From: Stx2-converting phage 86
DNA: 60,238 nt
Strand: one strand, 5' to 3'
Sequence record: NC_008464.1
Positions 18,001-21,000 of the stretch are shown in pieces. The position numbers were made by a program. The first letter of the stretch is position 1, and every line of letters starts with the position of its first letter.

Positions 18001-21000
18001 GGACCACAGGGATTACAGGGGCTGAAAGGTGAAACCGGAGAACGTGGACCTCAGGGGGTACAGGGCCCGGCAGGCCCGACAGGAGCAACCGGACCGGCGG
18101 GTCCACGGGGTGAACGTGGTGAACAGGGCATACAGGGGCCAGCCGGAGCAACAGGACCTGTTGGGCCACAAGGAGAGCGCGGTATTCAGGGGCCTGCAGG
18201 TCCTGCGGGCCCGCGAGGTGAAACCGGAGCCAGAGGTGAAAAAGGAGACCCCGGGGACCCCGGCGGCCCACCGGGACCAAAGGGTGATACCGGACCTGCT
18301 GGCCCTGCCGGTGAAAAAGGCGAACCCGGTGAGCGTGGGCCTCAGGGATTACAGGGGCCACCGGGTCCAGCCGGAGAGAGAGGGCCGACAGGCGAAGCCG
18401 GACCTGCGGGTCAACCGGGGCCCAAAGGAGACCCGGGTCCTGCTGGCCCACAGGGACCGGCGGGAGAGCGGGGAGCTCAGGGGCCTCAGGGTGTAGCTGG
18501 TCCTGTCGGCCCGGCAGGTGCAGCGGGCGCGAAAGGCGATAAAGGTGACCCCGGACCTGCTGGTCCTCAGGGGCAGCCCGGTCCTCAGGGACCTGCTGGC
18601 GAAACCGGACCCGCGGGTGAACCCGGGCCAAGAGGTGAGCCCGGTCCACAGGGACTTAAAGGTGACAGGGGCGAGCCAGGACCTACAGGCCCACAGGGAC
18701 CGGCGGGAGAGCGGGGACCTCAGGGGCCACAGGGTGTAGCTGGTCCTGTCGGCCCTGCAGGCGAACCGGGAGCGAAAGGCGATAAAGGTGACCCCGGAGG
18801 AACCGAACTGCTTGCTTCAGCCAATACATGGACTCAACCACAAACTATTAATGGCGATTTGACGGTAACCGGAAACGGCTCATTTAACGATGTTCAGATC
18901 CGTTCGGATAAACGTAACAAGCGAAATGCAATACGAATAGATAATTGTCTGGAGAAGCTTGACCTGCTAACGGGTTATTTGTATGAAATACAGAATGCTG
19001 ATGGCAGTTGGCAACAATCTGTGGGATTATTTGCACAGGATGCGTTAAAGGCTCAACCAGAGTTAGTTACATCTGATACAGATATCATATCTGGAGAAGA
19101 GAGATTTCGATTAAATTATAATGGTGTTATTGCACTGTTAGTTGAAGGAATAAAAAATCTGCGTAAAGAGATTAGCGACCTTAAAGAGAAATAATAAAAC
19201 AATCAGAGAACCATTAGTCTGAGGCAGAAGATAGTTGGTGTTATCGTCCGAATGACAGGAGGATGTTAAATGGGGGTTGCTTCCGGATGGGTTGGCTCCT
19301 CTGCCGTTAGTGTAACTGGTGAAAGGTCAATGAAATCGGCAGGTGCCAAACTTAAGCTAAGTACACCGTTTTATATGTCGCAAATGGTTGGGAAAAGTGT
19401 ACAGGACTTTTCTATCACTGTAGGTCGTTCAAATTTTGTTGTTTTAGTTCAGGCAACAAATATACAAATTGTTCCTGTAAACAATAACTATGGAGGGTAT
19501 TCTAATAACTCAACAACGACAGGTGCTGGCTCTGCCGTTTCCAGCCGTGTGCAAACACAAAATCCGGCTGGTTCAATAAATGGTTCGTTGTTAGGTTGTT
19601 CAATTACGCATCTTTCTCAAACGCAAGACTCTACCAAGATGTATCTGGGCTTAACGAACGGGCCTAATCAAAACTTTACTCTATCATTTGATGGAACCAA
19701 TATCTCATTCACACCATCATCATTTGCAAACAATACTCGGCATTATAGTGCAATAGTTTCTAAAAACTGGCTCTTTAATCAAAACGGAAAAACTATATCT
19801 GTTTATAAGGTTTAGAAGGAGTTGATAATGTACAAATGTGTTTTAGCTGTATTGATATTATTATCTGGTTGCAAATCTTTGCCAACTCCGCTTTGCCATG
19901 GTAAAGCATATTTAGGTGGGGAAGAAACTATAATACCAATTTATGGGATTAAGAAAAGCGGGAAGTATAAATTGTATCATGCAGGGCATCACTACAACTG
20001 GCGTTGGGTTGGTGCTGGAGCATTTGACAGCACAACCTGCTCTCAAATAATGTAAACCGTATACTATGTATAAAATGTTTAGCTAATGCTAATTGATAAA
20101 TTGTCATGAAACAGGCAAATCTGAAATACGTAAAGAAGCGCTACACAGCAGGAGATTTTTGTGTGGCTGGGTGCAGTGGCTGCCGTAATGATGCAATAAA
20201 AAGGGGAGCAACATGCTCCCCGACCAGAAGAAAGAAGTTTGATAACAATTAGTGAGTTGTTACGTCTCGTCCAGAATATCATAGCAACACTCTGTTGCAG
20301 TGATGCCGATCGCGATTTTAGCGAATTCCATCATAAATCCCCTGATTTTTAAGCCTGAAGCAGTCAAAGGAATTTCTATGCCTTATATCGATATCACCAC
20401 GATGCGTGGGATGATGCCGCGCGTCGTGACATCCATGCTGCCCGATCATTCCGCTGTACTGGCGGAGGACTGCCATTTCCGGTTTGGTGTTATTACACCA
20501 GAACGTCAGATATCCGGGGTTGAGAAAACATTCACAATTAAGCCAAAAACAATTTTTCATTACCGTGATGATTTCTGGTTTGCGTGGCCGGATGTGGTGG
20601 ATGTGATCCGTAGTCCCGTTGCTCAGGATAATTACGGGAGGATCTACTACACTGACGGAAAATTTCCAAAAGTCACGGCTGCTGAAATTGCCACCAAAGG
20701 AGAGGGGAATTTCCCTGCGGCATCATATCGTCTGGGGATCCCCGCACCGACAACAGCACCTGTTTGTACCGTTCAGAAGGGAGAAGGTGCCACTGACGAA
20801 AATCCGAATGATGATGAAACCCGCTTTTATACCGAAACCTTTGTATCGGCGTATGGTGAGGAAGGGCCTCCCGGACCTGAATCGCTGGAAGTCACCGTGG
20901 GGATCCCTGATACTCCGGTTCAGTTAACACTCTCTCCGGTTCCGTTGCAGGACGCAAACATCAATCGTCGTCGTATTTATCGTTCTGTCTCAGGGGGCGG

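What the first reader, a model, noticed from the sequence alone, without database searches (positions are those of the whole stretch)
19270..20055. AT-rich two-gene cassette (181-aa ORF plus 75-aa lipoprotein) immediately after the tail fibre gene
Both genes have markedly lower GC than the surrounding tail genes and strong RBSs. Small lipoproteins encoded next to receptor-binding proteins often act as superinfection-exclusion factors that mask the phage receptor, as T5 Llp does; short-tailed Stx phages are reported to use BamA. I therefore propose the lipoprotein (lipobox LSGC) as a receptor-masking candidate and the 181-aa ORF as a host-range or accessory protein.
Basis: inference. Interest (0 to 1): 0.55.

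Follow-up and report, generated by a model that had tools for sequence, protein, structure and literature searches.

The report
Tail-fibre adhesin plus Cor exclusion lipoprotein
The two small AT-rich genes after the side tail-fibre gene of this Shiga-toxin phage are a detachable fibre-tip adhesin and a member of the known Cor family of phage-exclusion lipoproteins, already annotated as such in public genomes, and Cor most likely shuts an iron transporter (FhuA) against other phages, not this phage's own BamA receptor.

Summary
ORFs 19270-19815 (181 aa) and 19828-20055 (75 aa, lipobox LLSGC) exist, have good ribosome-binding sites, and have GC 0.39 against 0.49 for the window. The AT-rich tract actually begins near 18800, inside the fibre gene.

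The 181-aa protein has a gp38-type N-terminal fibre-attachment domain and a beta-sandwich head with no match in the PDB. Its homologue, SSU5 gp22, is reported to bind the LPS core.

Identical DNA is already annotated "tail fiber adhesin" and "Cor" in Shigella phage POCJ13, in four published EHEC podophages and in 53 of 5426 complete E. coli genomes.

Those four podophages still lyse fhuA and tonB knockouts and are neutralised by purified BamA. So Cor is not masking a receptor this phage needs, and BamA masking has no support.

Adhesin and Cor travel together in several phage backgrounds. In one relative cor has decayed to a remnant.

Interest is modest.

The parts
17173..19194 (+). Side tail-fibre gene (673 aa). 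It has a phage_tail_N N-terminus, about 330 aa of collagen Gly-X-Y repeats, and a C-terminal Peptidase_S74 intramolecular-chaperone domain. That domain (aa ~578-673, roughly 18800-19194) is the first, AT-rich part of the mobile module.
   Evidence: Pfam hits for Collagen, Peptidase_S74 and phage_tail_N. GC falls from 0.685 to 0.387 at about 18800. The C-terminal 105 aa are 58% identical to the SSU5 fibre tip.
19258..19263 (+). Ribosome-binding site AGGAGG for the adhesin gene.
   Evidence: Read directly.
19270..19401 (+). Adhesin residues 1-44: the gp38-type N-terminal domain that docks on the fibre tip.
   Evidence: Pfam PF21721 Gp38_N, E 1e-19, residues 1-40. A profile hit to Salmonella phage S16 gp38 (PDB 6F45_D) covers only residues 1-49, E 9e-9. 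This part is 64% identical to the O104/P13803-type adhesin, whose remainder is unrelated. It is disordered in the monomer model.
19402..19815 (+). Adhesin residues 45-181: beta-sandwich head, the presumed receptor-binding part.
19815..19820 (+). Ribosome-binding site AAGGAG for cor. It overlaps the adhesin stop codon, and the two genes are only 12 nt apart.
   Evidence: Read directly. The same tight junction, with an RBS, occurs in L019 and L030.
19828..19872 (+). Cor signal peptide and lipobox (MYKCVLAVLILLSGC). Cys15 is the lipidated residue, and Lys at +2 predicts sorting to the outer membrane.
   Evidence: Read directly. Cys15 is invariant in 68 Cor sequences. The +2 sorting rule is my knowledge.
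19828..20055 (+). cor: a 75-aa phage-exclusion lipoprotein of the Cor family with an Llp-like fold.
20106..20252 (+). 48-aa ORF of unknown function, between cor and the point where similarity to 933W resumes (about 20163). It is uncertain whether it belongs to the module.
   Evidence: PHROG 32751, function unknown. Annotated as hypothetical in POCJ13. Breakpoint.

Best explanation
**What the module is.** It is a three-part, horizontally mobile host-recognition module sitting at the side-fibre slot of a short-tailed (Sepvirinae) Stx phage.

**Fibre and adhesin.**
- The collagen-like side fibre ends in an S74 chaperone domain.
- The 181-aa protein is a separate tip adhesin.
- Its first ~44 residues are a gp38-type adaptor that docks on the fibre tip.
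- Residues 45-181 form a beta-sandwich head that contacts the cell.
- By homology with SSU5 gp22, the head most likely gives reversible binding to the LPS core, assisting the essential BamA step. The BamA step is carried out by the central tip proteins (22000-24187).

**Cor.**
- With its Llp-like fold and conserved C23-C71 pair, it binds the periplasmic face of a TonB-dependent transporter, most likely FhuA.
- It locks that transporter in a state that phages cannot use.
- The result is exclusion of FhuA-dependent phages (T1, T5, phi80, N15, HK022 types), not of this phage itself.

**Shown here:**
- gene structure
- family membership
- predicted fold
- co-inheritance of adhesin and cor
- from the literature, that phages with this cassette do not need FhuA and are neutralised by BamA

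**Inferred:**
- the ligand of the adhesin
- the target of this Cor subclade
- when cor is expressed
For: **Family membership**
- Adhesin: Gp38_N E 1e-19, PHROG 1121 E 6e-66, and a match to S16 gp38 over residues 1-49.
- Cor: NF047972 equivalog above its cutoff, PHROG 1119.
- All three family-invariant Cys and 12 of 14 near-invariant residues are kept.

**What is known about Cor and Llp**
- Cor proteins inactivate FhuA. Llp binds FhuA from the periplasm and acts allosterically. The two are predicted to share one fold.
- The sequence relatives with characterised receptors, N15, phi80, HK022 (named as FhuA-dependent) and JLBYU60, are all FhuA-dependent.

**The phage's own receptor**
- Phages phi296, phi315, phi367 and phi419 carry DNA 100% identical over 19100-20300.
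- They lyse all 54 Keio outer-membrane mutants tested, including fhuA766 and tonB760.
- They lose 10^2 to 10^3 in titre after incubation with purified BamA.

**The adhesin's ligand**
- SSU5 is reported to bind the LPS core oligosaccharide 'with the tail fiber gp22' (PMC12312913).
- gp22 (SSU5_022) is the 50%-identical homologue of the adhesin.

**Dispensability of cor**
- In L017 and L018 the adhesin (76% identical) is kept, but cor is only a frameshifted 5' remnant.
Against: - No experiment has been done on this Cor. It is only 40-43% identical to the Cor proteins with a demonstrated FhuA phenotype, and it belongs to a separate subclade (window, L030, L019, SSU5-like) with no characterised member.
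- cor lies 12 nt after the adhesin gene. No promoter is conserved among its relatives, and no + strand terminator follows it. It may therefore be made only late in lytic growth. That fits protection of progeny from the phage's own receptor better than it fits defence of a lysogen.
- Adhesin and Cor diverge in parallel across several backgrounds, which could mean they are a functional pair.
- The LPS-core claim for SSU5 gp22 comes second-hand; the original paper could not be read.
Confidence: 0.6

Rival explanations
1. Cognate pair. This Cor subclade masks the receptor that the adjacent adhesin binds (an outer-membrane protein, possibly FhuA or another TonB-dependent transporter). It would be made late with the adhesin, so that lysing cells and debris do not trap progeny and so that lysogens resist re-adsorption. 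The receptor would be an accessory one, not needed for plaques on K-12.
For: - Every lineage with a full-length homologue of the adhesin head also has a Cor of the same subclade, or a remnant of one: the Sepvirinae type (window), L017/L018 (remnant), L019-21, L030/31 and the SSU5-like elements. The six loci sharing only the N-terminal adaptor (L004, L005, L013-16) have none.
- Identities fall in nearly the same order for both proteins. Adhesin: 69, 58, 50%. Cor: 62, 59, 51%.
- The two genes are 9-12 nt apart with no conserved internal promoter.
- T-even gp38 adhesins bind outer-membrane proteins (my knowledge).
Against: - The SSU5 homologue of the adhesin is reported to bind LPS core, not a protein.
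- In SSU5-like elements cor directly follows homologues of N15 gp22 and gp23, which is the canonical J-gp22-gp23-cor order of the FhuA phages. There, its partner looks like the central-tip protein, not the adhesin.
- Tight physical linkage alone could explain the co-inheritance.
- None of the 54 outer-membrane knockouts changed lysis by phages carrying the cassette.
Confidence: 0.2
2. One reading: the lipoprotein masks BamA, the essential receptor of short-tailed Stx phages, and so excludes superinfection by this phage and its relatives.
For: - BamA is the receptor of phages with this cassette.
- The lipoprotein is in a superinfection-exclusion family and sits in the host-recognition region.
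Against: - No Cor or Llp family member is known to act on anything other than a TonB-dependent transporter. The solved Llp mechanism works through the FhuA plug and loops.
- cor is not next to the proteins proposed to recognise BamA (23283-24187). It is next to the side-fibre adhesin.
- The slot after the gp23-like gene holds lom, not cor.
- Most BamA-dependent Sepvirinae (the 933W and O104/P13803 types) have no cor at all.
- The O104:H4 2011C-3493 chromosome carries the cor cassette in a Sepvirinae-type prophage, while a Stx phage from another O104:H4 strain has the cor-less allele. This hints at co-residence, but it is weak evidence because the order of acquisition is unknown.
Confidence: 0.05
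3. Hitch-hiker. cor has no role in this phage. It arrived with the fibre-tip and adhesin segment from an SSU5-like element after loss of the intervening gp22/gp23-like genes, and it is on its way to being lost.
For: - L017 and L018 have lost it.
- The phage does not need FhuA.
- No promoter of its own was found.
Against: - The ORF is intact and at least 99% conserved in 53 complete E. coli genomes and 8 phage records.
- It keeps a good RBS, the lipobox, all three invariant Cys and 12 of 14 near-invariant residues.
- Intact copies at 51-67% identity persist in other backgrounds.
Confidence: 0.1

Closest known systems
Cor lipoproteins of phi80, N15, HK022 and mEp167 (NCBIfam NF047972, PHROG 1119)
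   Same: - Size of about 75-78 aa, lipobox, and two further conserved Cys.
- Conserved GG..T..IY and YRAG..NWRWV motifs.
- 40-43% identity.
- Scores above the equivalog cutoff.
- Encoded in the host-recognition region.
   Different: - It belongs to a distinct subclade with the SSU5-like, L019 and L030 proteins (51-67% identity).
- It follows a gp38-like side-fibre adhesin at a 12-nt distance, whereas the classic Cor genes follow gp22 and gp23 after a ~110-nt gap.
- The host phage is a podophage that uses BamA and does not need FhuA.
- Its target has not been tested.
T5 Llp (lytic conversion lipoprotein; PDB 8A60 chain B, 7QJF)
   Same: - It is a small outer-membrane lipoprotein with an intramolecular disulphide.
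- It is encoded beside a receptor-binding protein.
   Different: - 14% identity, and no significant sequence match (profile E 0.76, mostly the signal peptide).
- Llp's partner pb5 binds the same protein that Llp blocks. That is not shown here.
gp38 adhesins of T2, T6 and S16 (PF21721 + PF05268; PDB 6F45)
   Same: - The N-terminal attachment domain.
- The gene lies immediately downstream of the distal fibre gene.
- A small separate tip protein.
   Different: - The head is a beta-sandwich with no GP38 (PF05268) hit and no structural similarity to 6F45 beyond residue 49.
- The fibre it follows ends in an S74 chaperone domain, and the phage is a podophage.
Salmonella phage SSU5 gp22 (SSU5_022) with its Cor-like protein SSU5_025
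   Same: - Closest characterised relative of the whole module: fibre tip 58% identical, adhesin 50%, Cor 51%.
- gp22 is reported to bind the LPS core oligosaccharide.
   Different: - SSU5 is a ~103-kb siphophage.
- Two genes (homologues of N15 gp22 and gp23) lie between its adhesin and cor.
The adhesin allele of the O104:H4 / P13803 / Ss-VASD Stx phages
   Same: - The same slot in Sepvirinae.
- A collagen and S74 fibre, plus an adhesin whose first 44 residues are 64% identical.
   Different: - An unrelated head domain, and no cor.

Membership tests
Cor phage-exclusion lipoprotein family | Sequence match to the curated family model | tested here: met
   NF047972 equivalog, 71.5 bits against a cutoff of 31, E 4e-20. 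PHROG 1119, E 3e-33, full length. Pfam has no model that hits it.
Cor phage-exclusion lipoprotein family | Signal peptide with lipobox, and a +2 residue compatible with outer-membrane sorting | tested here: met
   LLSGC with Cys15 and Lys16. Cys15 is invariant in 68 family members. The sorting rule is my knowledge.
Cor phage-exclusion lipoprotein family | Two further conserved cysteines (the intramolecular disulphide shared with Llp) | tested here: met
   C23 and C71 are invariant in the 8- and 68-sequence alignments. The disulphide is mentioned in PMC9586334.
Cor phage-exclusion lipoprotein family | Inactivates FhuA and excludes FhuA-dependent phages | not testable with these tools
   No experiment exists for this protein or its subclade. 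The phenotype is known for phi80, N15 and HK022 Cor.
Cor phage-exclusion lipoprotein family | Carried by a phage that itself uses FhuA, downstream of J-gp22-gp23 | tested here: not met
   Here cor follows the side-fibre adhesin. The phage's gp22/gp23-like genes (23283-24187) are followed by lom. Phages with the identical cassette infect fhuA and tonB mutants. This is a usual context, not a strict definition of the family.
T5 Llp family | Llp fold | tested here: met
   [not shown]
T5 Llp family | Detectable sequence homology to Llp | tested here: not met
   Profile against PDB: 8A60_B at E 0.76, covering mainly the signal peptide. 14% identity in the structural alignment.
gp38 tail-fibre adhesins (T2, T6, S16 type) | N-terminal fibre-attachment domain (PF21721) | tested here: met
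   E 1e-19 over residues 1-40. 6F45_D matches residues 1-49, E 9e-9.
gp38 tail-fibre adhesins (T2, T6, S16 type) | C-terminal glycine-rich, polyglycine-II-type receptor-binding domain (PF05268) | tested here: not met
   No PF05268 hit. The model is a strand-rich sandwich. There is no match to 6F45 or to any PDB fold.
gp38 tail-fibre adhesins (T2, T6, S16 type) | Encoded directly after the distal fibre gene | tested here: met
   75 nt after the fibre stop codon. The same arrangement is seen in SSU5, L019, L022, L025 and L032.
gp38 tail-fibre adhesins (T2, T6, S16 type) | Present in the virion at the fibre tip | not testable with these tools
   The mass spectrometry reported in PMC12502783 covers the head, fibre and structural proteins. 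The adhesin is not mentioned.
Moron (autonomous lysogenic-conversion gene) | Own promoter and terminator flanking the gene | tested here: not met
   Promoter-like sites are no more frequent than in shuffled sequence (4 against 4.5 expected). The best candidates are not conserved in L017, L019 or L030. No + strand terminator follows cor.
Moron (autonomous lysogenic-conversion gene) | Base composition unlike the neighbouring genes | tested here: met
   GC 0.386 against 0.491 for the window. The fibre tip and the adhesin share the low GC.

The most novel reading that the evidence does not exclude
This Cor subclade may be the cognate exclusion partner of the gp38-like adhesin head. In that case, BamA-dependent short-tailed Stx phages of the POCJ13 type would use a second, protein receptor through their collagen-like side fibres: a TonB-dependent transporter such as FhuA, dispensable on K-12. 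They would also carry the matching receptor-blocking lipoprotein as one portable 'adhesin head + blocker' unit that moves between podophages, phage-plasmids and other prophages.
Probability: 0.15. Interest if true: 0.6.

Novelty: already known. Interest (0 to 1): 0.3.

Why it matters
**Practical points**
- Cor-bearing Stx prophages occur in about 1% of complete E. coli genomes. These include O111:H8 strains and the O104:H4 outbreak lineage.
- If this Cor inactivates FhuA, such prophages may make their hosts resistant to FhuA-dependent phages, including therapeutic or biocontrol T1- and T5-like phages. They may also alter ferrichrome uptake and albomycin or colicin M sensitivity.

**What it says about these phages**
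- Side-fibre tips in Sepvirinae come in at least three alleles, and only one allele carries cor. This is relevant to predicting the host range of Stx phages.

**How much is new**
- None of this changes what kind of thing the genes are. Both families are described, and the genes are already named in public records.

Tried and rejected
**Searches that gave little**
- Pfam has no model that hits the lipoprotein.
- A single-sequence search of the large protein collection with Cor returned only two near-identical proteins. A profile of eight Cor sequences was needed.
- The tblastn search with a neighbouring SASA esterase, meant to name the ~225-kb L019 scaffolds, only hit NanS-p-like genes of Stx prophages. 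That background remains unclassified.
- No paper in the library discusses Cor in a Stx phage.

**Promoter hunt**
- The promoter and terminator scan found no more sites than in shuffled sequence.
- One candidate's -10 hexamer overlaps the cor start codon.
- The other candidate is not conserved in relatives.

**Readings rejected**
- A weak spanin hit (PHROG 3198, E 0.024) covers only the signal peptide.
- SSU5_024 is not a second copy of the adhesin. It is a distant homologue of N15 gp23 instead.

**Source not available**
- The original SSU5 receptor paper (PMC3911222) is not held. The LPS-core claim therefore rests on a citing paper.
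Full report
**1. The observation**

The region contains two + strand ORFs. The first runs 19270-19815 (181 aa). The second is listed mechanically from TTG 19822, but its ATG is at 19828, giving 75 aa and ending at 20055.

Both have Shine-Dalgarno sequences 7 nt upstream: AGGAGG for the first and AAGGAG for the second. The short protein begins MYKCVLAVLILLSGC, a signal peptide with lipobox L-S-G-C and Lys at +2.

GC is 0.397 for the first gene and 0.386 for the second, against 0.491 for the window. Only 4.3% of 786-nt windows are as AT-rich as the finding.

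One correction is needed. The low-GC tract starts at about 18800, inside the fibre gene. The collagen part of that gene has GC 0.685 and its C-terminal S74 domain 0.387. The module therefore has three parts.

**2. What the genes are**

*The upstream gene.* Gene 17173-19194 is a collagen-repeat side fibre with a phage_tail_N start and a Peptidase_S74 intramolecular-chaperone end.

*The 181-aa protein.*
- It matches Pfam Gp38_N over residues 1-40 (E 1e-19) and PHROG 1121 'tail fiber adhesin' over its whole length (E 6e-66).
- A profile of it and its relatives hits the solved adhesin gp38 of Salmonella phage S16 (6F45_D), but only over residues 1-49.
- An AlphaFold model built on 12 sequences leaves residues 1-42 disordered. 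This would be expected if that peptide only orders on the fibre tip (inference).
- It is thus a gp38-type adaptor joined to a different head.

*The 75-aa protein.*
- It scores 71.5 bits (cutoff 31) on the NCBIfam equivalog 'phage exclusion lipoprotein Cor', and E 3e-33 on PHROG 1119.
- It is 43% identical to N15 Cor and 41-43% identical to phi80 and HK022 Cor.
- It keeps the three cysteines that are invariant in 68 family members.

**3. It is already in the databases**

The DNA of 19100-20300 is 100% identical in:
- Shigella phage POCJ13, whose RefSeq record annotates 'tail fiber adhesin' and 'Cor superinfection exclusion protein'
- vB_EcoP_phi296, phi315, phi367 and phi419
- two Japanese Stx1a/Stx2a phage records

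In addition, 53 of 5426 complete E. coli genomes carry the cassette at 99% identity or more. In most of them PGAP names the gene cor. These genomes include O111:H8 strains and the O104:H4 outbreak strain 2011C-3493, where the cassette lies in a Sepvirinae-type prophage.

**4. Context in related phages**

The side-fibre slot of Sepvirinae has at least three alleles:

| Allele | Genes after the fibre | cor |
|---|---|---|
| 933W type | two unrelated small ORFs | none |
| O104 / P13803 / Ss-VASD type | 170-aa adhesin sharing only the first 44 residues (64% identity) | none |
| POCJ13 / window type | 181-aa adhesin | present |

Full-length relatives of the adhesin occur elsewhere, and each comes with a Cor of the same subclade:

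| Background | Adhesin identity | Cor identity | Spacing |
|---|---|---|---|
| SSU5 and ~105-kb SSU5-like elements | 50-58% | 51-59% | two genes between |
| ~225-kb metagenome scaffolds L019-21 | 69% | 62% | 10 nt |
| Salmonella Enteritidis contig L030 | not computed | 67% | 9 nt |

In L017 and L018, another Sepvirinae phage, the adhesin is 76% identical. Only a frameshifted 5' stub of cor remains (LLSGCQTLPEPVC...), joined to the conserved downstream sequence.

The six loci that share only the adaptor domain have no Cor.

**5. Where cor normally sits**

In N15, phi80, HK022 and the FhuA phage JLBYU60, the order is J-like tip, gp22, gp23, cor.

The two genes that separate the adhesin from cor in SSU5-like elements are distant homologues of gp22 and gp23. 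They are also homologous to the window's own 93-aa and 208-aa genes at 23283-24187. These are the 'Ig-like' and 'hand-like' tip proteins that PMC12309495 proposes as the real receptor binders: FhuA for JLBYU60, BamA for phi24B.

So in SSU5-like elements cor is in its canonical place. The direct adhesin-cor junction seen in the window can be explained by loss of the gp22/gp23-like pair. The opposite direction of change cannot be excluded.

**6. What the experiments in the literature say**

- PMC12502783 tested phi296, phi315, phi367 and phi419, all with the identical cassette, on 54 Keio outer-membrane mutants. All were still lysed. The set included fhuA766, tonB760, ompA, ompC, ompF, fadL, tsx, btuB, tolC and lamB.
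- In the same study, pre-incubation with purified BamA cut titres 10^2- to 10^3-fold. The paper does not discuss cor or the adhesin.
- Cor proteins inactivate FhuA, but their mechanism is unsolved.
- Llp binds the periplasmic face of FhuA and changes its outer loops.
- Cor and Llp are predicted to share a fold.
- SSU5 is reported to bind the LPS core oligosaccharide through gp22, the adhesin homologue. I could not read the original paper.

**7. Interpretation**

*Adhesin.* It most likely caps the side fibre and gives reversible binding, probably to LPS core. The central tip proteins handle BamA.

*Cor.* It most likely blocks FhuA, or another TonB-dependent transporter, from the periplasmic side, and so excludes other phages and not this one. 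I put this at about 0.6.

*Main rival (0.2).* Adhesin head and Cor may be a cognate pair. Three things favour this: the strict co-occurrence, the near-parallel divergence, and the 12-nt junction without a conserved promoter. That last point suggests late co-expression, as expected for a protein that shields progeny from the phage's own receptor.

*Other rivals.* BamA masking (0.05) has no support. A functionless hitch-hiker (0.1) is unlikely given the conservation, although the loss in L017 shows that cor is dispensable.

**8. Verdict**

It also guessed the class of both proteins correctly, including the Llp analogy. The proposed target was wrong. The genes belong to described families and are already annotated, so novelty is low.

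The one unremarked point is that a FhuA-type exclusion lipoprotein rides on the side-fibre module of BamA-dependent Stx podophages. One simple expression experiment would settle what it blocks.

Noticed in passing
window 1-960: The window opens with a 319-aa ORF carrying a ribosome-inactivating-protein domain (Pfam RIP, E 1e-29), i.e. a Shiga toxin A subunit. The 60-kb window looks like a whole Stx-converting phage genome that starts at stxA.
   Followed up: partly
window 22000-24187: The central tail-tip gene (422 aa, Phage_Tail_Tip) is followed by 93-aa and 208-aa genes. These are distant homologues of N15 gp22/gp23, phi80 22/23 and JLBYU60 gp25/26, the locus that is followed by cor in FhuA phages. 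Here it is followed by an Ail/Lom gene (24278-25012) instead.
   Followed up: partly
L017 4545-4640 and L018 1196-1290: A related Sepvirinae phage keeps the adhesin (76% identical) but has only a frameshifted 5' remnant of cor (signal peptide and lipobox). A deletion joins the remnant to the conserved sequence that lies at window ~20318.
   Followed up: yes
L019, L022-L025, L032 (fibre genes ending just before the adhesin); window 18800-19401: A Gp38_N adhesin gene regularly follows a fibre that ends in a Peptidase_S74 self-cleaving chaperone domain, both here and in the SSU5-like and other backgrounds. How a gp38-type adaptor docks on a tip that is exposed only after S74 cleavage is not described in anything I read.
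   Followed up: no
L022 5820-6816; L019 4800-5306: In the SSU5-like elements and the 225-kb scaffolds, a second, different Gp38_N adhesin gene follows cor. In L022 it is preceded by a fragment resembling the S74 fibre tip. This suggests stacked or alternative adhesin cassettes.
   Followed up: no
L035 (E. coli O104:H4 2011C-3493, 2,564,057-2,564,842): The outbreak-lineage chromosome carries the adhesin+cor cassette in a Sepvirinae-type prophage. A Stx phage from another O104:H4 strain (phiON-2011) has the cor-less adhesin allele. I did not check whether these are two co-resident prophages in one strain.
   Followed up: no
window 20203-20221: A GC-rich hairpin (GGGGAGCA...TGCTCCCC) followed by a T-run on the minus strand lies inside the 48-aa + strand ORF and is conserved in 933W. 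It looks like a terminator for minus-strand transcription within a block of + strand late genes.
   Followed up: no
window 48650-49400: This is the most AT-rich stretch of the window (GC about 0.34), lower than the finding itself. It overlaps a 348-aa minus-strand ORF at 48638-49684.
   Followed up: no
window 28608-36998: A single 2796-aa + strand ORF, by far the largest in the window. It was not examined.
   Followed up: no
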